Shown piece after piece: positions 35,921-44,757 of a stretch of DNA of 64,000 nt; position 1 is the stretch's first letter; each line of letters begins with the position of its first letter. Location: assembly GCA_000004985.1 (NCBI GenBank), contig GG738856.1, one strand, 5' to 3'. The position numbers and the translations under genes are program-made. The notes under the pieces are model-generated. The model saw only the letters and a list, made by a program, of their open reading frames with translations. It was not told where the DNA came from and searched no databases. The DNA is from Naegleria gruberi (lineage: Eukaryota).

Positions 35921-36949
35921 TTAAGGGGAAGCAAAATTAAATTGAAGGGAAGCATTTGGAATGGTAGGAGGGAGAGGTGGAGCCATTCCAATTGGATGTG
36001 CTGATATTCCAGATAAACTTCCAAGGGTTAACCATCTGAGCAAAAGAATGAGACCAATCATGGCCAAATAAATATAAAAGAATTTCAATGCCAAAAGTGC
36101 AATATTCAAAATAGCTTTGAAAGCAGACTCTAAAAATGTATCTTGTTGACTTGGTGTCATTGTAACAGTTCCAACTTTGAGTTGATTTTGTAATTGCATT
36201 TCAATCCAAGTTGATTTGATTAGTGAAATGTAGAGTTGTTGATTTTTGATAATTCTTGATGGAGAGGTGTTTTGTACATTGTTATTTACAGAATTTTCTC
36301 TTAGTGAGGTTGAAATTTGGTTAGTTTGATTCGAATGAGTTTCTAATAAATTATTTGAGGTATTGTTTTGAGAAATGGATGGAGGAGTGGAAATGGTAGA
36401 ATTCTCTGATAATGTTTGATTGAGGGTCACAATCGTAAACTGTTTCTTATTTGATTTGATGAGCAAAATGACTTGTTCATCAGTTTTATGGGAAAGAACG
36501 AAGAATGCAAAAACAAACAATCCAATCGTTGTAATTATCAATCCAATTCTTCTCTCATGAATCAAAACCATACTATAGTTGACAATTTTTTGGATAAAGG
36601 TGTTGCTTGATTGAGTAGTTGTTATCGTTTGATTATCATTGTCCATTTCCCTATTAGGAATTGATTTCAAAAAGGATTTTATCTTGTCCAGAACGGAAAC
36701 AAGACATAAACACAATACTAAACATAAGAGTATTGTCAGGTGATTAGGACCTGTCGCCGATGATGTTGTTTCTAAACCTGTTTCATCCACACTATTTGAC
36801 TTTCTATTACAAAAACTAAAGAATTGAAAGTTATGCGAAATTAACCAATCATACACCATTGAATGTATGGAAAATGGTGGTATGGCAGTCATTGAACAAA
36901 ACCACGACGATTCATCCATTACAATTTGATTATTACTGTTCATTTTCAA
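35921..36949 (-). CDS. Hypothetical multi-pass membrane protein with an Asn/Ser/Thr-rich loop.
   Basis: Three or four hydrophobic helices ('LTILLCLVLCLCLVSVL', 'IGLIITTIGLFVFAFFVL', 'ILNIALLALKFFYIYLAMIGLILLL'). No recognisable domain. Confidence 0.4.
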   Translation of the reverse strand: MKMNSNNQIVMDESSWFCSMTAIPPFSIHSMVYDWLISHNFQFFSFCNRKSNSVDETGLETTSSATGPNHLTILLCLVLCLCLVSVLDKIKSFLKSIPNREMDNDNQTITTTQSSNTFIQKIVNYSMVLIHERRIGLIITTIGLFVFAFFVLSHKTDEQVILLIKSNKKQFTIVTLNQTLSENSTISTPPSISQNNTSNNLLETHSNQTNQISTSLRENSVNNNVQNTSPSRIIKNQQLYISLIKSTWIEMQLQNQLKVGTVTMTPSQQDTFLESAFKAILNIALLALKFFYIYLAMIGLILLLRWLTLGSLSGISAHPIGMAPPLPPTIPNASLQFNFASP

Positions 36950-38213
36950 ATCTCAATGCTCGGAATCTATTTTTCAGTCAACTGCTAATTTGTCCTTTCG
37001 TTTTTATCAATTATTATTAATAATAAATAACCCTGAGAGAGCTCTTCAGAAGGAATGCTGTTGTTTTTTTTAAATATATCATCATGCTGGTTGTTGGCTT
37101 GGATTGATTCTTACCAAACTTCCAACATGCCTCAAAATGGCACTCCAACCAAGAATTGAAAAATTGGCGCGATAAATGGAAGATCCAAAAAGACCTCACT
37201 TGCCGAGCGCTGAAGGAGGAGAGAAATTGCTTCCGCTCTTAAGGAAAATCCACGCTTTATCTGCATCAGCAAGATGATGTTGTTTTTGAGCTTGTGTTGA
37301 GAAGGTTATGAATTGGCAGTTGACAGATATTGGAAAAAGTCCGTCTTATTGAAATATAAATTTCGCTCGTGGAAAATGAGGGTGTAATAATGTGAGAGTG
37401 TAAATTACCGATTAGTTCTGTTATCGATTCTCAATTTCATCACCCTGAATGCATCACTAGAAAATGATTGTCATTTGAGTTGATTAGTTTCGGAATTGAT
37501 TTCAAATTTTTCGAAAGGACATTAGAGAATCACCTCATGCTCACTAATCTCTCTCAGCAAATGTAACCTCATAATTAATCTGGGGATGACGCTTATTACT
37601 CAAAGTGCGATGATCAGCGCACTAAAATCGTGGCTTTTGGATTTTGATTGTTTTTTAATATATCCTTAAAGGAATGAGAAGTTTTCTTTGATAATCTCCT
37701 GTAGAATCTGTGATTTACAGTAAATTGAGAATGACAAAGCTTTTTCTGGGATTCAAACAAGGTCGATTTATAAATATTTAAAACAATTAAATCGGAACAA
37801 TTAAATAAGAGATAATATTTGTAAAATTATTTAGCAGCCAGAATGGAAGAGTCCCCTAATTATCTTTTTAATTTCCGAAATCTGTGGTTGTCGATCATAT
37901 TAATTTTTAACACGTTTATTCATCAGAAATACTGGCGTTCTCTCTATCATTTCTATAGAATTCGGGTAGCTCTTCTACGGGAATGAATGTAAGGGTATGG
38001 ATCTTCAATTCTATTGGAATAGAATTCATGAATTGAGTCAAAGTAGGTAGTGATCCCTTCTTTCCCGATGAGACTACTGTTTTAAAATCATCGATGCGAA
38101 TTTCCCATTTTTCAAAGTACTATTAATGCATAGTGATTATGTCAAAGTTCAGTGACTAGAAATTTAAGAGAAAAAGCCCAGGAAAAGATGCCAAATTACC
38201 TTAGAGTGTGAAT

Positions 38214-38984
38214 TTATTGTAACCAAGATTGACAAGTAGAAACAGCGTTAGGAGATGTAGTTCCAACTGGTGGGAATCTCAACCATTCTCTCATGGAAAC
38301 TTGTGAAACACCCAAAGTTGGATCGTGCATTGGCATGGTAGCAACACCTTGAGCCATACCAACTCCCCATTGTGGATGTTGCAAATCAAAGATAATAGTT
38401 CTGGCATAATCTAAATTTTGTTGAGCATCTCTCCAACCATCAATGAAAGTTTGTGAGCTAACTCTAATTGGAGCAGTGAATTGAGTATTATTGGATTTGT
38501 AAAAGAATGAATAATATCCGAATTGAGCAATAGCATCCTTAGGAATTGGATAATTAGTGAATGGATCAGTCTTGGATGAATCCAAAGCAACAACTGTCAA
38601 CATGTCAACATAAACCTTAACAAGTGGACTTCCAAAGAATCTACGGTTTGATGTAACAGCACCAACAACTGAATATCCTTCAAAACTACCCTTTTCTAAT
38701 CTGAAACTTGTTGGTAAATTGGAAGAATTGGTAAAATCAATGCCGAATCTTGTCTTGAAAAATTGCAAACCTTCATTCAAACGTTGAGCTGTGAATCGTT
38801 GAGTATTTAATGGATATTCTAAACGTTTAGGGATTAATTCAAAGGAAACAGCATCATCATATAAAAGTGTCAATTCAGCAATAAAATTCTTGCTTGGATC
38901 ACAAGTCACTTGTCCATATGTGAAATTTGCAAGAATTAATAATATTAATACATTAACAAGAAGAATAAACTTCATATTGTACAA
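38214..38984 (-). CDS. Secreted protein of 256 aa. It is a paralogue of the N-terminal domain of the adjacent haloperoxidase-like gene.
   Basis: Signal peptide 'MKFILLVNVLILLILANFTYG'. It aligns with residues 60-290 or so of the 39653..41593 product ('FFKTRFGIDFTNSSNLP' against 'FFRNQYGLDISADGSRLP', and 'QFGYYSFFYKSNNT' against 'LIFGFYTFFWKVNGT'). Confidence 0.5.
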   Translation of the reverse strand: MYNMKFILLVNVLILLILANFTYGQVTCDPSKNFIAELTLLYDDAVSFELIPKRLEYPLNTQRFTAQRLNEGLQFFKTRFGIDFTNSSNLPTSFRLEKGSFEGYSVVGAVTSNRRFFGSPLVKVYVDMLTVVALDSSKTDPFTNYPIPKDAIAQFGYYSFFYKSNNTQFTAPIRVSSQTFIDGWRDAQQNLDYARTIIFDLQHPQWGVGMAQGVATMPMHDPTLGVSQVSMREWLRFPPVGTTSPNAVSTCQSWLQ

Positions 38985-39652
38985 GAGGAGGAAGGAGAGG
39001 TGGTTAATAATTTACAAGAGGAAAGAAAGACCTTTCGTTTAGAATCGTTTTTTTTGTTCTGAGATTAGTTGTGTGGTGAACACTTCATTGTGACCGACAC
39101 GTTTGACAATTAAAAAGATATTTAACAACAGAATTGAGAAGTAGACTGCCTTTATTTATTTTGAAACCAATAAGAATCTTCTAATGACCAAAAGCCCTTC
39201 ATAAGATATTGTAAAGGTTACATGTTAATTATTGTAATGTCACCAATTATGAAGAAGGTACTCTTAATACATTACTTGATTGAGTTAATTGGGTAAGCAT
39301 CTCTTTTGAGGAAGGTAATATCTTGGGAAAATGTTTTACAAAAGTGCCAACTTGCCGGCTGTCATTTTTTTGAAATGGCAGTTGACAACCATTAAGAAGG
39401 TATTTAATGACCCGCTAATCTCATAGATCCTTTTTCTTTGCGCATGTTCCAACGTATTTCACAATCGAACCTTCAAAACCAGAGTCATTTCCAATAACAA
39501 AAAAAATCAAAACTAATCTCAATAACCTTTAGTTCACACTTTCTCTCTGTATCATTATTATTATCCACAAAGTGTTCAATTTACTCTAATTGATTCACTG
39601 CCCTGTACACTTCCACCTTGTAAAATATATTTCCTTGTAACAATATTAAATA

Positions 39653-41593
39653 ATGACCTCCAACAATTATTGTAAATTAACCATCATGATGTTTTTCATG
39701 ATGATATTATTCATGGCCTCTCTTTCCCATGCCTACTCTCCAACCACCGAAACTGATCCAGATGAATACGATACTCAATTCTCCCTCTCTCTAGTTTCGA
39801 ATACTTTAGGTTCTATTGAACCAGGTCCAGTAACCAGATATCCAGATGCCTACGAAAAGGCCACAAGTTTCTTCAGAAATCAATATGGTTTAGATATTTC
39901 TGCTGATGGATCTCGTCTCCCAGTTGGTGCTCAACTCGTTACTGGTTCTGCCTCAGCTTACGTTATGAATTATGCCAAAGTTCGTGGTTATCCAATTTTG
40001 GCAGGTTCACAAGATGTTGGAGTTCATGATGATACTATTAGTATTGTCCTTTCTCAACCAGCTGTTGTTCATGGAGCTTATGGTGGTAAGAATGGAACTT
40101 TTGTCGATGGAAATTCTGTTTTAATTTTTGGTTTTTATACTTTCTTTTGGAAAGTTAATGGAACTTCAGTTTTTCCAAGATCTACCTTTGCAGGAATGAT
40201 GCCAATGAAGATTGGTCCAGATGGTTCAATGGTTGTTGATTGTGAATTGACTTCTAATATATTTGGAAAGGGTATGGCTAGAGGAATTATGCTCATTAGA
40301 ATTAATCCTCTAACTGGTCAACCTTACACAACCATTGTTAGTTCACATACTTACCAAATGTCAAAGACTGATACATCTCCAAAATGTGCTGTATTGACAA
40401 CTGAAAAGGACATTCACAATGATGACTTTGTTGTCAAGTGGAATAATGTCTTGTTGAGCGTCATTCGTGATTTGAAAGTTGCTCCACCAATTGCCTCAAG
40501 ACAAATGGCCATTCTTCACACTGCCATTGATGATGCCCTTGGTAATTGCAGAAGATTGAGATATACTTCTAGAAAGTGTACTCGTGCTACTTTGGTTTCT
40601 GTTATTTCATATGCTGCTCATCGTGTCTTGTCCAATTTGTATCCAGCTCAAATTGATTGTTTCAATGGAGCTTTGAAGAGAGCTTTGGAATGTAATGAAT
40701 GTAAGACTGTTCCTAGAACTGAATTGGTTGCCATCGGTAAATCAGGTTCTTTGGCAGCTGACAGAGTTTTGAGATGTAGAGATAATGATGGTAGTACTGA
40801 TTTTGTTGATTATAATTTCTCTAATGGACCAATGTCTTATCAATCCCATGCTCCAAACTATGTCAGAGTTCCATTGTTACCTCAATGGCCAAATGTTGAA
40901 CCATTTGGTGTTCAAGATGTTGATTCTTTCGATCAAGGTCCTCCACCACAAATTGGAACTCCTGCATTCGAAAGTTCATACGATGAAGTTTTCACATATG
41001 GTAAGAATGATTCTAGTGTGAGAACATTTGAACAACGTAGAATTGCCTTGTTCTGGGCTGATAATGCTGGTACAAGTACTCCACCAGGTCACTGGAATAT
41101 CATTTTACAATCCATCATTAGAAAGATGAATATTGTTGATACTTTCAAGATTTCTGGCATGTTTAAGGTTTTGACTAGTTCATTGGCTGATGCTGCTATC
41201 GTCTGTTGGTATCATAAATACAAGTATGATGCCTTCCGTCCAGTTACTGCCATTGCCAACAGAAATAGAAATACTAATTGGTTCCCATTTTTGGCAACTC
41301 CTCCATTCCCAGAATATTCTTCAGGACACTCAACATTTTCTGCTGCAGGTGCCAGAGCTTTAAGTTTATTATTGGGAACTGATGATATTTCCTTTGAAAC
41401 CATTTCTGAAGGTTATGTTCATCATGTGAGACAGTTCAGTAAATTGTCAGATGCTGCAAAAGAAGCTGGTAAATCAAGAATCTATGGTGGTATTCACTTT
41501 GAATATGCCAACCAAGCTGGTTATACTTCAGGTGTTGCTGTTGCCAATGCTGTTTACAATCAGTTGTGTAGAAATGGTTCATGTCTCGTATAA
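39653..41593 (+). CDS. Secreted vanadium-dependent haloperoxidase / PAP2 acid-phosphatase superfamily enzyme with an N-terminal accessory domain.
   Basis: Signal peptide 'MMFFMMILFMASLSHA'. Complete PAP2/V-HPO tripartite motif: 'KYKYDAFRP' (KX6RP), 'YSSGHS' (PSGH) and 'SRIYGGIHFEYANQAG' (SRX5H..., which resembles the 'RIFLGVHWRFD' of fungal V-chloroperoxidase). The spacing between motifs is canonical. Confidence 0.75.
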   Translation: MTSNNYCKLTIMMFFMMILFMASLSHAYSPTTETDPDEYDTQFSLSLVSNTLGSIEPGPVTRYPDAYEKATSFFRNQYGLDISADGSRLPVGAQLVTGSASAYVMNYAKVRGYPILAGSQDVGVHDDTISIVLSQPAVVHGAYGGKNGTFVDGNSVLIFGFYTFFWKVNGTSVFPRSTFAGMMPMKIGPDGSMVVDCELTSNIFGKGMARGIMLIRINPLTGQPYTTIVSSHTYQMSKTDTSPKCAVLTTEKDIHNDDFVVKWNNVLLSVIRDLKVAPPIASRQMAILHTAIDDALGNCRRLRYTSRKCTRATLVSVISYAAHRVLSNLYPAQIDCFNGALKRALECNECKTVPRTELVAIGKSGSLAADRVLRCRDNDGSTDFVDYNFSNGPMSYQSHAPNYVRVPLLPQWPNVEPFGVQDVDSFDQGPPPQIGTPAFESSYDEVFTYGKNDSSVRTFEQRRIALFWADNAGTSTPPGHWNIILQSIIRKMNIVDTFKISGMFKVLTSSLADAAIVCWYHKYKYDAFRPVTAIANRNRNTNWFPFLATPPFPEYSSGHSTFSAAGARALSLLLGTDDISFETISEGYVHHVRQFSKLSDAAKEAGKSRIYGGIHFEYANQAGYTSGVAVANAVYNQLCRNGSCLV

Positions 41594-41825: not shown

Positions 41826-42563
41826 ATGATGCAACAACTCTTGACCATTTTGAATTTGTCTGCTGAGGATGCCGAAAACACTCTTCAAACAATTAAAACT
41901 GTGATGGATAAGCAATTGGGACAATTTTATAATTCTACAAAATGTGATTTTACTAAAACCATTCCATACGGTGATCTTTCTTATGATTTTGTGATTTGTT
42001 TGGAAAAGAAAATTAGTGATGAATTTATTTTGGAATGTTTCCGAGTTTTGAAGAATGGCGGATCTATTTTCCTTGCTAATAATAATGACAATTCTGATGC
42101 ATTGATGATGAACGGATTTTTAAGTATTACACAACAAGAAAGCGTTGTCAAAGCTACTAAACCTTCTTTGAATTTGGGATCCAGTTTCTCCCTCTCAACT
42201 AAACAAGCACAAACTGCTCCAATCAACACAACTACACAACAAACCAATGTCAAGAAGTGGACTTTGACAAATCTCGATGACGATGATGTTATTGGTGATG
42301 ATGACTTGTTGGAAGATGATGATTTGAATAATGCTAGCACTAGTGATGATTGTGGAACTGGTATTGGAGGAGAAAAGAAGGCCTGTAAGAATTGTACTTG
42401 TGGTAGAAAGGAAGGTGAAATTCCAGAGCCAACCGAATATGTTAGTTCTTGTGGTAACTGTTTTAAGGGAGATGCTTTCAGATGTGGAACTTGTCCATAT
42501 CTTGGTATGCCAGCATTTGAACCTGGTGAAAAACTTCAACTTAAGAACACTATGGATATTTAA
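41826..42563 (+). CDS. CIAPIN1: Anamorsin (CIAPIN1/Dre2), an Fe-S cluster assembly protein.
   Basis: C-terminal twin Cys motifs 'CKNCTCG' and '[23 protein letters not shown]' are diagnostic. The N-terminus is methyltransferase-like. Confidence 0.85.
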
Positions 42564-42587: not shown

Positions 42588-43598
42588 CTAGTTTGATTTG
42601 AGAAGCTTTCTAATACTCATCTTGATAATATCATCAACTTCCACTCTTGCTTGTCTCTTCTTATCCAATTCTTGAGTTGTGAGTTGAGCAAGGAATGGCA
42701 TAAAGTCTTGTTCAACTTGTCTATGTACAATATCGTAGAAGAAACCCTCTTCTTGCAGAGTTGTAAAAACATTGAGATCCAAATTTTCAAGATATTGATT
42801 TGCAAATTGTCTACTAGCCAATTTTCGTCTACATTCTTGTTCTCTTTGTAATCTTTGTCTTTCTTGTTCCTTACGACGCTCCTTCTCTTCAAATCTTCTC
42901 TTTTCAGCTGCTTCAAGTCTTTGAGTTTCTGCCAATTCAGCATTACGCTTTTGAGCAAATTCTTTCTTTTGTTGCTTGAGAGCTTCCATTTCTTCCTCTT
43001 CCAAAACTTCAAGCATTGATTGTTCTAATGTTTTTCCGATAATTACTTCCAATATTGGTGCAACCTCAAAGTCAAAATCAAACAAATCCTCTTCCACTTG
43101 AACACCTGTATCAACACCTGTTTTTGAGGGTATGAAAACTGGAGATTCAGGTCTGTCTTGAAAAGGATCTGTTTGCGTCCACACATCTGTTTCTTCAATT
43201 TCCTCCATATATGTTTCTGTTTGGATTTCAATATGTTTCCTACCATCAACCGGATCTAAATTTCTCTCAGCTAGTAATTGTTCTTGTAAATCTCTTTCTT
43301 GTCTTTGTTTTACTTCCAACAATTTTCTTTTTTGTAGTTGTTTTTCCCTCTTTTCTTCGAGCTCCATTTCAAGTTGTTGGTTTTGTGGTATTATTTGTTG
43401 AGCATAGGTATTACCTCTGTAAACTCTTCTATCATACATAATATTTCCAGTGTTATTCAGAGAGTTCCCTCGGCTAGATACTTCCGCAAAGGGATCTCTA
43501 TACTTGTTCTTCTTTGAGGAGTTGTTGACAGGCTTTGGCTCCTGCTGAAATGAATGAAATGCTGCTTGCATTTTTTTTACTTGTTTTAAAACTGACAA
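42588..43598 (-). CDS. Radial spoke protein 3 (RSP3/RSPH3)-like axonemal AKAP.
   Basis: Blocks 'NIMYDRRVYRGNTYA', 'DGRKHIEIQTETYMEEI', 'LFDFDFEVAPILEVIIGKTLEQSMLEVLEEEEMEA' and a charged coiled coil 'AELAETQRLEAAEKRRFEEKERR' match what I recall of the RSP3 family core. I cannot confirm this from memory. Confidence 0.5.
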   Translation of the reverse strand: MSVLKQVKKMQAAFHSFQQEPKPVNNSSKKNKYRDPFAEVSSRGNSLNNTGNIMYDRRVYRGNTYAQQIIPQNQQLEMELEEKREKQLQKRKLLEVKQRQERDLQEQLLAERNLDPVDGRKHIEIQTETYMEEIEETDVWTQTDPFQDRPESPVFIPSKTGVDTGVQVEEDLFDFDFEVAPILEVIIGKTLEQSMLEVLEEEEMEALKQQKKEFAQKRNAELAETQRLEAAEKRRFEEKERRKEQERQRLQREQECRRKLASRQFANQYLENLDLNVFTTLQEEGFFYDIVHRQVEQDFMPFLAQLTTQELDKKRQARVEVDDIIKMSIRKLLKSN

Positions 43599-43773: not shown

Positions 43774-44370
43774 TTAATATTCATATTCAACTTCTTCATT
43801 TATGAAGCCTCTTTCACTGACGTAAATACCGTCCAAGAACTTACGAATATCCTTGTTCTTAACGAGGGTAGCAAGATGGATAGCGGCAGCAGAGTTGGAG
43901 ACAAGTTCCAAATCATTACCAGTAATTTGAATTTCGTCCTTTTGACCAGTAACTTCAACAACACAACCTTCTCTCATGTCGACCTTTCTGACTCTCTTTT
44001 CACCCAAGAAGTTTCTGATTTCAATGTTCTTCTTGTCGTCAGAAATCTTACAGTTGACAGGGAAATGCGCATAGACGAATCTCATCTTGTACTTGTATCC
44101 CTTGGTAACACCAACAATCATGTTTTGAATGTGGGTAGCAACAGTTCTAACGAGAGATGATTCTCTTCTGTTACCGTGGAACTTTTGAACGACAACTCTA
44201 GTGAAGTTATTTTCTTCAGTTGGTTGTTCAACGAAGACGTCGAGTTGAACGTGTTGGAAGTTTCTATGCAAAGTACCTCTTGGACCAGTAACGGCGACAC
44301 GTCTAGCCTTGACAGTGATGGTAACACCCTTTGGGACCTTAACAGTTTCGACAGTGTTCAAGCTCTTCAT
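43774..44370 (-). CDS. RPL9: 60S ribosomal protein L9 (uL6).
   Basis: 'MKSLNTVETVKVPKGVTITVKARRVAVTGPRGTL...YAHFPVN...IRNFLGEK...KDIRKFLDGIYVSE' is collinear with eukaryotic RPL9. A GTAAGT motif in the leader suggests a 5'UTR intron. Confidence 0.9.
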   Translation of the reverse strand: MKSLNTVETVKVPKGVTITVKARRVAVTGPRGTLHRNFQHVQLDVFVEQPTEENNFTRVVVQKFHGNRRESSLVRTVATHIQNMIVGVTKGYKYKMRFVYAHFPVNCKISDDKKNIEIRNFLGEKRVRKVDMREGCVVEVTGQKDEIQITGNDLELVSNSAAAIHLATLVKNKDIRKFLDGIYVSERGFINEEVEYEY

Positions 44371-44757
44371 TCTTTGTGTAAGCAGGTGGTAAGTAAAAAA
44401 CCGAGAGGATGACAACTTACTTGTTTTGACGATTTTTTTTTCAACAAACTTTGTTTAATTTTTGGGTGACTAAATCTTTACAATGAAAAAGTTTGCTTGG
44501 ATTTTTGAATGGATTTTTCATTATGAAAATAAAATTGCACTTTGAAGCAGGAATGACTTCATAAATTTTCATTGTTCGTTCATCACTCTCCACCTTTTTG
44601 TGTTTGATAATTCATGATAATTTCCCAACAACAATAACTTCTCCGCATCATCAATATCTACAACAACAATATGAACATGTATTACTAACGGAATGGAGGA
44701 ACAAATAACCGACATTTGGTGTTAAATCAACTAATAACATTAAAATACAATAATAAT

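What the first reader, a model, noticed from the sequence alone, without database searches (positions are those of the whole stretch)
38214..41593. Secreted vanadium-haloperoxidase/PAP2-like enzyme next to a divergently transcribed paralogue of its own N-terminal domain
The gene at 39653..41593 carries the full KX6RP, PSGH and SRX5H active-site triad with canonical spacing. Its third motif is closer to fungal or bacterial vanadium chloroperoxidases ('SRIYGGIHFEYANQAG' against 'RIFLGVHWRFD') than to ordinary lipid phosphatases. It also has a signal peptide. Its first 230 aa or so form a separate domain. The neighbouring minus-strand gene 38214..38984 encodes just that domain, also with a signal peptide. 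This is a local duplication followed by domain loss or gain. V-haloperoxidase-like enzymes are patchy in eukaryotes, so horizontal acquisition is plausible. A secreted halogenating or phosphatase activity could serve antimicrobial defence or prey processing.
Basis: partly seen in the sequence, partly recalled or inferred. Interest (0 to 1): 0.62.

Follow-up and report, generated by a model that had tools for sequence, protein, structure and literature searches.

The report
Amoeba haloperoxidase-like enzyme with barrel partner
A Naegleria gruberi gene encodes a secreted enzyme of the bacterial vanadium-haloperoxidase type fused to an uncharacterised beta-barrel domain, and an old, free-standing relative of that barrel sits head-to-head next to it in several Naegleria species; the enzyme class is already annotated, but the barrel family and the conserved pairing are undescribed.

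Summary
The window is the Naegleria gruberi NEG-M reference genome. Gene A (39653/39686..41593, +) is XP_002679676.1, already annotated "PAP2_haloperoxidase domain-containing protein".

**Gene A, C-terminal 390 aa.** This part has the two-bundle vanadium-haloperoxidase fold. The predicted model aligns with 409 of 415 columns of Zobellia iodoperoxidase. All seven vanadate/phosphate-binding residues are present, as are the Trp and Phe that line the active-site pocket. Its closest relatives are bacterial (about 40% identity, at least 583 species). No other eukaryote appears among the top 120 hits.

**Gene A, N-terminal ~230 aa.** This is a separate beta-barrel domain.

**Gene B (38214..38975, -).** It encodes a secreted stand-alone barrel homologous to A's N-terminal domain (hhalign 97%, E 3.5e-11, 22% identity).

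**Not a recent local duplication.** Both barrels belong to a wider family with no Pfam model: 126 cluster representatives, mostly stand-alone proteins of about 250 aa. The two lineages split before the genus arose.

**Conserved pairing.** The divergent A/B pair is found at four Naegleria loci.

**Function.** A most likely makes hypohalous acid from H2O2 and halide outside the cell or in the phagosome. The barrel probably acts as a binding module. This is inferred, not shown, and phosphatase activity remains a real rival.

**Horizontal transfer.** Acquisition from bacteria is plausible but ancient. The donor is unresolved and there is no compositional trace.

The parts
38214..38975 (-). Gene B: 253-aa secreted stand-alone beta-barrel protein (N. 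gruberi 'predicted protein'). It has one N-terminal and one C-terminal Cys (C25, C248).
   Evidence: ORF. Nine orthologues/paralogues, all in Naegleria, 53-99% identical with 83 invariant columns. AF2 model: pLDDT 80.4, pTM 0.74, a helix plus a long-stranded antiparallel barrel. No Pfam or NCBIfam hit.
38913..38975 (-). Predicted signal peptide of B (MKFILLVNVLILLILANFTYG)
   Evidence: Hydrophobic N-terminus; no other hydrophobic 19-mer. Inference only, as no signal-peptide predictor was available.
38976..39652 (.). Divergent intergenic region between B and A; presumed shared promoter region
   Evidence: Sequence read. The head-to-head arrangement recurs, with 438-577 bp spacers, in L001, L002 and L005. 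No k-mer of 9 or more is shared among the four spacers.
39653..41593 (+). Gene A: barrel-VHPO fusion protein. It is 646 aa from the first ATG. RefSeq XP_002679676.1 starts at 39686 and gives 635 aa.
   Evidence: ORF. 100% identity to XP_002679676.1 / EFC46932.1 / D2V7U7. Full-length orthologues occur only in Naegleria-like sequences.
39653..39733 (+). Predicted signal peptide of A (…MMFFMMILFMASLSHA)
   Evidence: Hydrophobic N-terminus and low-pLDDT helix. The longer N-terminus MTSNNYCKLTI resembles that of paralogue P0004, MLSHYSKLSI. Inference.
39767..40357 (+). N-terminal beta-barrel domain of A (aa 28-224 in 635-aa numbering), a member of the same family as B
   Evidence: AF2 strands 28-224. 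hhalign against the B family: 97.2%, E 3.5e-11. The family profile finds 126 representatives.
40358..40426 (+). Interdomain linker (aa 225-247), containing conserved Cys234
   Evidence: pLDDT 53-73. Cys234 is conserved in 8 of 8 Naegleria sequences.
40427..41569 (+). Vanadium-haloperoxidase-type domain made of two helical bundles (aa 248-628)
   Evidence: Foldseek against 4usz/4cit: E 8e-17, TM 0.78, 409 of 415 columns. phmmer against 4cit: E 1.4e-29. Pfam PAP2 at 28.6 bits (cut-off 27.2), with VCPO_2nd, VCPO_N and DUF6851 below their cut-offs.
41204..41242 (+). Motif 1: C-W-Y-H-K-Y-K-Y-D-A-F-R-P. Trp508 corresponds to CiVCPO W350 / ZgVIPO W321, Lys511 to K353/K324, and Arg518 to R360/R331.
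   Evidence: Alignments to 4cit and 1idq. Residue mapping. Invariant in 80 sequences.
41300..41332 (+). Motif 2: PPFPEYSSGHS. Phe541 corresponds to F397/F353, and Ser546-Gly547-His548 to S402-G403-H404.
41474..41512 (+). Motif 3: SRIYGGIHFEYAN. Arg598 corresponds to R490/R410, and His604 to the vanadate-binding H496/H416. The residue at H+4 is Ala, not Asp.

Best explanation
**What it is**

Gene A encodes a soluble protein that enters the secretory pathway. It joins two parts with different histories.

1. The C-terminal 390 aa is a complete vanadium-haloperoxidase-family catalytic domain of the monomeric bacterial (Zobellia VIPO-like) type. An ancestor of Naegleria most likely acquired it from bacteria long ago. 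It has since been adapted to the host, with host-like codon composition and Naegleria-specific disulfide cysteines.
2. The N-terminal ~200 aa is a beta-barrel from a widespread, uncharacterised family of secreted proteins of about 250 aa.

Gene B is a free-standing, anciently diverged member of the same barrel family. It is kept head-to-head with A across Naegleria species.

**Proposed mechanism (inferred, not shown)**

- Vanadate is held by His604 with Lys511, Arg518, Ser546, Gly547 and Arg598.
- The bound vanadate binds H2O2 and oxidises a halide to hypohalous acid. His548 acts as acid/base, and Trp508 and Phe541 line the halide pocket.
- The reaction takes place outside the cell or in the phagosome or food vacuole.
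- The barrel acts as a ligand- or target-binding module that places the oxidant source next to its substrate.
- B is co-expressed from the shared spacer, as a partner or as a related binder.

**Confidence by step**

- Family and domain identity: about 0.9.
- Halide oxidation as the native activity: about 0.5.
- A functional link between the barrel or B and the enzyme: about 0.3.
For: **Identity**
- Gene A is 100% identical to the N. gruberi RefSeq protein annotated PAP2_haloperoxidase.

**Fold**
- The AF2 model (pLDDT 87.4) matches Zobellia VIPO at E 8e-17 and TM 0.78 over 409 of 415 columns.
- The next matches are NapH1, NapH3, XhnO11 and CiVCPO.
- Acid phosphatases match only one bundle.

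**Active site**
- Ten of eleven ZgVIPO1 active-site and second-sphere residues are identical.
- The catalytic set is invariant in 80 homologues.

**Bacterial affinity**
- Identity to Planctomycetota, Cyanobacteria, Acidobacteriota and Verrucomicrobiota is 40-43%.
- The match always covers only aa ~240-630.
- Naegleria sequences are monophyletic in 100 of 100 bootstraps.

**Barrel family**
- The profile search finds 126 representatives. Nearly all are single-domain proteins of 240-290 aa.
- No Pfam, PDB-sequence or NCBIfam relative was found.

**Homology of A's N-domain and B**
-.

**Pair conservation**
- The divergent pair is present in the window, N. lovaniensis L001, L002 and L005.

**Secretory adaptation**
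- Hydrophobic N-termini, N-x-S/T sequons and conserved cysteine pairs present only in Naegleria.

**Related experimental work**
- A VHPO from Rhodopirellula (RhobaVHPO), which clusters with the iodoperoxidases on the phylogenetic tree, showed chlorination activity with a preference for bromide in the monochlorodimedone assay (PMC13519999).
Against: - No activity data exist for any Naegleria member, or for the nearest bacterial clade at about 40% identity.
- The active site of V-haloperoxidases and PAP2 acid phosphatases is shared, and apo-VCPO dephosphorylates substrates (PDB 3bb0 title). Sequence alone therefore cannot separate the two activities.
- Some VHPO homologues do not halogenate, for example NapH3 (PMC13519999).
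- ZgVIPO1 Tyr263 aligns with Gly here.
- Pfam VCPO_2nd and VCPO_N score below their gathering cut-offs in my scan.
- The orientation of the barrel relative to the active site is uncertain: pTM is 0.67, the linker has low pLDDT, and I could not read the coordinates.
- None of 80 bacterial loci has a barrel-family gene within 3 kb, so the barrel-enzyme link has no independent support outside Naegleria.
- One B-type gene is unpaired in L007/L008.
- The four intergenic spacers share no motif.
Confidence: 0.5

Rival explanations
1. A is a secreted or lysosomal acid phosphatase that uses the PAP2 catalytic His604 as nucleophile to scavenge phosphate from prey or the medium. Under this reading the haloperoxidase-like fold is only ancestry.
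For: - The Pfam PAP2 model passes its cut-off, at 28.6 against 27.2 bits.
- JGI names many bacterial homologues 'membrane-associated phospholipid phosphatase' or 'PAP2 superfamily'.
- The catalytic residues are the same in both enzyme classes.
- Apo-chloroperoxidase traps a phosphate intermediate (3bb0).
Against: - The whole two-bundle VHPO architecture is present, and every top solved-structure match is a V-haloperoxidase or a VHPO homologue. Acid phosphatases align only over about 220 columns at E 3e-5 or worse.
- Motif 3 lacks the Asp at H+4 (HFEYA, as in ZgVIPO HYRAA). That Asp is part of the PAP2 phosphatase signature SRx5Hx3D (established knowledge: Stukey & Carman 1997). It is present in the ordinary Naegleria PAP2 in L007.
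- The pocket residues Trp508 and Phe541 are conserved.
Confidence: 0.25
2. A is a VHPO-fold enzyme with a non-halogenating chemistry, comparable to NapH3 (alpha-hydroxyketone rearrangement). The chemistry would act on a small molecule held by the barrel. On this reading the barrel is an AOC/dirigent/Diels-Alderase-like pocket, and the pair forms a small secreted specialised-metabolite module.
For: - NapH3 is among the top structural matches.
- The top Foldseek hit is also a Diels-Alderase, AbmU.
Against: - No Foldseek match is significant; the best has E 0.017 and TM about 0.3.
- There is no sequence-profile link to the Dirigent or AOC families.
- The full halogenating residue set is intact.
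- No biosynthetic genes flank the pair.
Confidence: 0.1
3. One reading: B arose by a recent local duplication of the 5' part of A (or A arose from B plus a catalytic domain) at this locus.
For: - The two genes are adjacent and homologous.
- In the NJ tree the A-N and B lineages, each with its non-Naegleria relative, form one group in 38 of 100 bootstraps. An ancient tandem duplication is therefore not excluded.
Against: - Identity is only 22-24%.
- A-N has at least 40 better matches outside Naegleria than to B.
- B groups with P0131 in 97 of 100 bootstraps. A-N plus B alone are monophyletic in 0 of 100.
- The pair already exists in species whose A proteins are only 56-60% identical to this one.
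Confidence: 0.08
4. The haloperoxidase-like gene is bacterial contamination or an assembly artefact.
For: The nearest non-Naegleria relatives are all bacterial.
Against: - The gene is one ORF fused to a barrel domain that is absent from the bacterial loci examined.
- It lies between anamorsin, RSP3 and other eukaryotic genes.
- Its GC3 matches its neighbours.
- The same fusion occurs in at least four independent Naegleria assemblies or metagenomes.
Confidence: 0.01

Closest known systems
Zobellia galactanivorans vanadium iodoperoxidase Zg-VIPO1 (PDB 4cit/4usz)
   Same: - Monomeric two-helical-bundle fold, matched over 409 of 415 columns at TM 0.78.
- 36.6% identity over 243 aa.
- Identical Cys-Trp-x-x-Lys, Arg, Phe, Ser-Gly-His, Arg and His residues.
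- No Asp at H+4 in motif 3.
   Different: - A carries an extra ~230-aa N-terminal beta-barrel, a eukaryotic signal peptide and Naegleria-specific cysteine pairs.
- ZgVIPO1 Tyr263 aligns with Gly.
- Halide specificity and activity are untested.
Uncharacterised bacterial 'PAP2_haloperoxidase' proteins of ~420 aa (Planctomycetota, Cyanobacteria, Acidobacteriota, Verrucomicrobiota)
   Same: They are the closest sequence relatives of the catalytic domain, at 40-43% identity over aa ~240-630. Many also carry extracellular modules such as PEP-CTERM, HemolysinCabind, dockerin or PPC (Pfam columns).
   Different: None has the barrel domain, and none has a barrel-family gene within 3 kb. The family itself has not been characterised biochemically, as far as the library searched shows.
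Curvularia inaequalis vanadium chloroperoxidase (1vnc/1idq)
   Same: The catalytic residues and the Trp350 and Phe397 equivalents are shared. The N-terminal bundle aligns from residue 14 of CiVCPO. CiVCPO is a fungal enzyme that acts mainly as a monomer (PMC11871015).
   Different: Identity in the structural alignment is only 17%. The sequence match is weak (E 2e-7) and covers only two short stretches.
Class A non-specific acid phosphatases and membrane PAP2 lipid phosphatases
   Same: They belong to the same superfamily and share the K-x6-RP, SGH and R-x5-H active site.
   Different: They have a single bundle of about 220 aa or a multi-pass membrane topology, and they carry the Asp at H+4. 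A has two bundles, no membrane segment and Ala at H+4.
AOC-barrel-like / dirigent / beta-barrel Diels-Alderase proteins (for the barrel domain only)
   Different: - There is no sequence relationship.
- Foldseek matches are not significant.
- The barrel here is larger, at about 200 aa with 17-19-residue strands plus an N-terminal helix.

Membership tests
Vanadium-dependent haloperoxidase family (PAP2_haloperoxidase) | Two helical-bundle domains (VCPO_N-type plus VCPO_2nd/PAP2-type) | tested here: met
   AF2 model against 4usz/4cit: E 8e-17, TM 0.78, 409 of 415 columns. NapH1 and CiVCPO also match over 450-550 columns.
Vanadium-dependent haloperoxidase family (PAP2_haloperoxidase) | Vanadate-binding set Lys, Arg, Ser-Gly-His, Arg and the axial His | tested here: met
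   K511, R518, S546, G547, H548, R598 and H604 align with ZgVIPO1 and CiVCPO residues. They are invariant in 80 homologues.
Vanadium-dependent haloperoxidase family (PAP2_haloperoxidase) | Second-sphere pocket residues (CiVCPO Trp350 and Phe397 equivalents) | tested here: met
   Trp508 at K-3 and Phe541 in PPFPEY. W508 is invariant and F541 is conserved in at least 90% of sequences.
Vanadium-dependent haloperoxidase family (PAP2_haloperoxidase) | Pfam VCPO-specific models above their gathering score | tested here: inconclusive
   In my scan VCPO_2nd scored 23.0 against 27, and VCPO_N 17.8 against 29.3. PAP2 passed at 28.6 against 27.2. The precomputed table lists PF22778 for this protein.
Vanadium-dependent haloperoxidase family (PAP2_haloperoxidase) | Vanadate-dependent oxidation of halide by H2O2 | not testable with these tools
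   Needs an enzyme assay.
PAP2 acid / lipid phosphatases | Single PAP2 bundle (about 220 aa, soluble) or six-pass membrane topology | tested here: not met
   No hydrophobic 19-mer beyond the signal peptide. Acid phosphatases cover only 217-261 columns of the model.
PAP2 acid / lipid phosphatases | Motif 3 SR-x5-H-x3-D with the charge-relay Asp | tested here: not met
   The sequence is SRIYGGIHFEYA, with Ala at H+4. The ordinary Naegleria PAP2 in L007 has SRTLDYHHNFSD. The definition of the signature comes from established knowledge.
PAP2 acid / lipid phosphatases | Phosphomonoesterase activity | not testable with these tools
   Needs an enzyme assay.
AOC-barrel-like / dirigent superfamily (barrel domain and gene B) | Eight-stranded antiparallel barrel of that topology | tested here: inconclusive
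AOC-barrel-like / dirigent superfamily (barrel domain and gene B) | Sequence-profile match to the Dirigent, Allene_ox_cyc or AOC_like families | tested here: not met
   No such Pfam hit for A, B or 42 family members at E up to 10. The family profile finds nothing among PDB sequences.

The most novel reading that the evidence does not exclude
The barrel is a substrate-holding, dirigent/Diels-Alderase-like pocket that gives an otherwise freely diffusing hypohalous-acid generator its selectivity. A would then be a natural fusion of a 'dirigent' with a haloperoxidase, and B a free dirigent that works with it. Together they would make a two-gene secreted halogenation or cyclisation module in a bacterivorous amoeba. 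This would also give the first functional handle on a protein family of 126 cluster representatives that has no Pfam model and occurs in eukaryotes and at least one archaeon.
Probability: 0.1. Interest if true: 0.75.

Novelty: new variant of a known kind. Interest (0 to 1): 0.42.

Why it matters
- Vanadium haloperoxidases are known from algae, fungi and bacteria. How they achieve substrate selectivity is still debated (PMC11871015).
- A heterolobosean amoeba that keeps three copies of a bacterial-type enzyme, each fused to a binding-type barrel, would be a natural experiment in coupling oxidant production to a binding module. The barrel's free relative is kept next door.
- If the enzyme makes hypohalous acid in the phagosome, it would be a metal-oxoanion analogue of neutrophil myeloperoxidase in a free-living phagocyte.
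- Separately, the barrel defines an undescribed, widespread secreted protein family.
- The practical weight is limited. The gene is already annotated as PAP2_haloperoxidase, nothing here is experimentally shown, and the horizontal-transfer inference is ordinary for Naegleria.

Tried and rejected
1. **Pfam, NCBIfam and PDB-sequence searches for the barrel family.** They found nothing.
2. **Word-index search with the family profile, to get taxon names.** It returned only Naegleria and one unnamed protein, so the taxonomic spread rests on a few named clusters: Flabellula baltica, Methanothrix sp. and multi-Mb eukaryote-like contigs.
3. **A combined alignment for the full-length model.** MAFFT misplaced the stand-alone barrels onto the catalytic domain, so they were dropped. 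The N-domain in that model therefore rests on 8 sequences.
4. **The afdb50 fold library.** It was unavailable.
5. **Conserved promoter motif.** The four divergent spacers share nothing of 9 bases or more.
6. **Barrel genes next to bacterial VHPO-like genes.** None was found in 80 loci.
7. **Extra copies in the window.** None was found.
8. **Literature.** No paper links Naegleria with this gene, its accessions, or dirigent-haloperoxidase pairs. Fournier et al. 2014 was not held, so ZgVIPO1 residue numbers come from memory. They were checked against the 4cit sequence using a constant +8 offset.
9. **N. gruberi paralogue loci.** They could not be fetched. Adjacency of P0003 and P0122 is therefore only suggested by their shared contig length.
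10. **First NJ attempts.** One timed out and one was corrupted by NaN distances. Only one search is used.
11. **The 262-aa PAP2 near an unpaired B-type gene in L007.** It is an ordinary membrane lipid phosphatase and its position is a coincidence.

Full report
**Source and gene models**

The window has about 35% GC throughout. Around the finding it carries typical eukaryotic genes without long introns:
- anamorsin/CIAPIN1, 41826-42563
- radial spoke protein 3, 42588-43598
- a ribosomal-protein-like ORF, 43774-44415

The long ORF 39653..41593 is 100% identical over 635 aa to Naegleria gruberi XP_002679676.1 / EFC46932.1 / UniProt D2V7U7. The window is therefore the NEG-M reference genome. The gene is already annotated there as "PAP2_haloperoxidase domain-containing protein".

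RefSeq starts the protein at M12 (39686). The upstream ATG at 39653 adds MTSNNYCKLTI, which resembles the N-terminus of paralogue P0004 (MLSHYSKLSI), so the longer model may be correct.

Gene B is 38214..38975 on the minus strand and encodes 253 aa. The TTG start at 38984 in the mechanical ORF list is an artefact.

**Check of the observation**

All three active-site motifs are present with canonical spacing:
- KYKYDAFRP at 41216-41242
- SGH at 41321-41329
- SRIYGGIH at 41474-41497

The AlphaFold2 model of the 635-aa protein (pLDDT 87.4, pTM 0.67) shows three parts. There is a strand-only domain (aa 28-224), a low-confidence linker (225-247) and an all-helical domain (248-628).

The N-terminal domain and gene B are homologous:
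- BLASTP gives 24% identity over 150 aa, E 4e-7.
- Profile-profile comparison of eight A-type N-domains with nine B-type proteins gives 97.2% probability, E 3.5e-11, over 165 columns.
- The joint alignment shows shared motifs along the whole domain.

Both proteins begin with a hydrophobic segment and have no other membrane-like stretch. Both carry N-glycosylation sequons. A has cysteine pairs (186/234, 288/298, 325/336-339, 628/633) conserved in Naegleria but absent from 72 bacterial homologues. That pattern is what an enzyme adapted to the eukaryotic secretory pathway would show. No signal-peptide predictor was available, so secretion remains an inference.

**The catalytic domain**

By sequence, the best solved structures are all vanadium haloperoxidases or VHPO homologues:

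| Structure | E-value |
|---|---|
| Zobellia galactanivorans iodoperoxidase 4cit | 1.4e-29 |
| 9ptr | 2e-12 |
| 9l8x | 6e-9 |
| Curvularia chloroperoxidase | 2e-7 |
| NapH1 | 6e-4 |
| NapH3 | 1e-3 |

By fold, the model aligns with 409 of 415 columns of the Zobellia enzyme (E 8e-17, TM 0.78). It aligns with 440-550 columns of NapH1, NapH3, XhnO11 and CiVCPO. Class A acid phosphatases match only about 220 columns, at E 3e-5 or worse.

I mapped the ZgVIPO1 residues recalled from Fournier et al. 2014 onto the 4cit chain. A constant +8 offset reproduced all eleven residue types. Ten of the eleven are identical in A: Cys320, Trp321, Lys324, Arg331, Phe353, Ser358, Gly359, His360, Arg410 and His416. 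Tyr263 aligns with Gly.

The Trp at K-3 and the Phe in PPFPEY correspond to CiVCPO Trp350 and Phe397. The catalytic set is invariant in 80 homologues.

Motif 3 lacks the Asp at H+4 of the phosphatase signature, as does ZgVIPO1. An ordinary Naegleria membrane PAP2 found by chance in locus L007 has that Asp and has transmembrane segments. It shows no BLAST similarity to A.

That condition is therefore not met.

**Origin of the catalytic domain**

Full-length matches (at least 94% coverage) are limited to eight Naegleria-type proteins. These include two further N. gruberi paralogues (P0003 at 71%, P0004 at 62%) and N. lovaniensis C9374_007298. Every other hit among the best 120 covers only about 59% of the query at 36-43% identity. 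Where those hits are named, they are bacterial.

A scan of one genome per prokaryotic species found at least 583 relatives. All cover only aa ~240-630. The best are in Cyanobacteria, Planctomycetota, Acidobacteriota and Verrucomicrobiota.

In a neighbour-joining tree the Naegleria sequences are monophyletic (100 of 100). They are not nested in any one phylum.

GC and GC3 of A (0.38 and 0.244) and B (0.35 and 0.22) match neighbouring genes.

Acquisition from bacteria is the simplest reading of this distribution. It must predate the divergence of the Naegleria species sampled. The donor is unresolved, and the tree method is too weak to count as proof.

**The barrel domain and gene B**

B has only Naegleria homologues in the word-indexed search. 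A profile of the joint alignment, run against 1.84 billion representatives, found 126 proteins at E below 1e-3, of which 32 were below 1e-10. Nearly all are single-domain proteins of 240-290 aa. The members I read or aligned begin with a hydrophobic N-terminus. The aligned set shows these conserved elements:
- a Cys near each end
- FF..FG.DFS
- G.YGG..G
- C.L....WG.G.A.G
- RN..TFP

No member matches any Pfam family. The family profile matches no PDB sequence.

Named or placeable members are few:
- A 1178-aa Flabellula baltica (Amoebozoa) protein with a beta-helix region and two barrel copies.
- A cluster containing Methanothrix sp. WP_348305290.1, and members on contigs of up to 10 Mb.
- One member on a 452-kb eukaryote-like contig.

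The fusion to a haloperoxidase domain appears only in Naegleria.

**Is B a local duplicate of A's N-domain?**

It is not a recent one.
- A's barrel has at least 40 better BLASTP matches among non-Naegleria family members than it has to B. Examples are P0130 at 36% identity (E 1e-34) and P0134 at 31% (E 2e-14).
- B has its own outside relative, P0131, at 33% identity (E 1e-33).
- In a bootstrapped NJ tree B groups with P0131 in 97 of 100 replicates. A-N plus B alone are never monophyletic. The four lineages together group in only 38 of 100.

An ancient tandem duplication is not excluded. The split nevertheless predates the genus.

**The pairing is conserved**

The same head-to-head arrangement, with spacers of 438-710 bp, is seen at four loci:
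- the window
- N. lovaniensis, where the genes carry adjacent locus tags C9374_007298 and C9374_007299 (L001)
- assembly GCA_006365135.1 (L002)
- an ENA metagenome contig (L005)

These species have A proteins only 56-60% identical to the window's. Flanking genes differ between N. gruberi and N. lovaniensis.

One B-type gene is unpaired (L007/L008). The N. gruberi paralogues P0004 and P0123 lie on different contigs. P0003 and P0122 share a contig length of 250,472, but adjacency could not be checked.

The spacers share no motif. None of 80 bacterial loci has a barrel gene within 3 kb of the enzyme gene.

**Mechanism**

Shown:
- the family and fold
- an intact active site
- the domain fusion
- homology of the two barrels and their ancient split
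- the conserved pairing

Inferred:
- secretion
- vanadate loading
- oxidation of halide by H2O2 to hypohalous acid, outside the cell or in the phagosome
- a binding role for the barrel
- co-regulation of A and B from the shared spacer

The main rival is a secreted acid phosphatase. Sequence cannot exclude it, because the two enzyme classes share their catalytic residues. Non-halogenating VHPO homologues such as NapH3 also exist (PMC13519999). A VHPO from Rhodopirellula that clusters with the iodoperoxidases on the phylogenetic tree was recently shown to halogenate (PMC13519999). I could not measure how close it is to A.

**Verdict**

Its enzyme-class call is also correct, though it is already in the public annotation.

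The undescribed elements are:
- the barrel family
- its fusion to a bacterial-type haloperoxidase domain
- the conserved divergent pairing with a free barrel gene

This is a new variant of a known kind of enzyme. Interest is moderate, and no function has been demonstrated.

Noticed in passing
window 39653-39685: RefSeq XP_002679676.1 starts at M12 (39686). The upstream in-frame ATG at 39653 adds MTSNNYCKLTI, which resembles the N-terminus of paralogue P0004 (MLSHYSKLSI). The public model may be 11 aa short.
   Followed up: partly
P0130-P0253; L004 8001-8807: The barrel domain defines a secreted protein family with no Pfam model. It has 126 cluster representatives, mostly 240-290 aa, with a Cys near each end and the motifs FGxDFS, GxYGG and WGxGxAxG. 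Members lie on eukaryote-like contigs of up to 10 Mb, and one cluster contains Methanothrix sp. WP_348305290.1.
   Followed up: partly
P0182 (Flabellula baltica, 1178 aa), residues 713-932 and 1042-1177: This is the only other multidomain member found. It has two barrel copies C-terminal to a region with a weak right-handed beta-helix match. The barrel therefore looks like a mobile extracellular module.
   Followed up: partly
L007 5238-5987 and 7653-8441: An unpaired B-type barrel gene lies two genes from an ordinary 262-aa membrane PAP2 lipid phosphatase (KVGAGRLRP, PSGHS, SRTLDYHHNFSD). That phosphatase has no similarity to gene A beyond the superfamily motifs, so the proximity looks coincidental.
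   Followed up: yes
window 41826-42563 (+) and 42588-43598 (-): The anamorsin/CIAPIN1 and radial-spoke-protein-3 genes converge with only 24 bp between their stop codons. This shows very tight gene packing.
   Followed up: no
window 36950-38213: This 1.26-kb stretch lies between the stop of gene B and the start of the 342-aa ORF 35921-36949. It contains no ORF longer than 60 aa. It could be long UTRs, an unannotated RNA or an intron-containing gene.
   Followed up: no
window 35921-36949 (-): A 342-aa ORF with no Pfam hit. It is rich in Ser, Asn and Thr and has hydrophobic segments, so it may be a membrane or surface protein.
   Followed up: no
gene A aa 186/234, 288/298, 325/336/339, 628/633 (635-aa numbering): Cysteines conserved in 6-8 of 8 Naegleria A-type proteins are absent from 72 bacterial homologues. 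They are likely disulfides acquired after the enzyme entered the eukaryotic secretory pathway.
   Followed up: partly
N. gruberi paralogues P0003, P0004, P0122, P0123: N. gruberi has three A-type and three B-type genes. The window copies have similar identities to the second copies (A 71%, B 73%), and P0003 and P0122 share a contig length. This hints that the pair was duplicated as a unit.
   Followed up: partly
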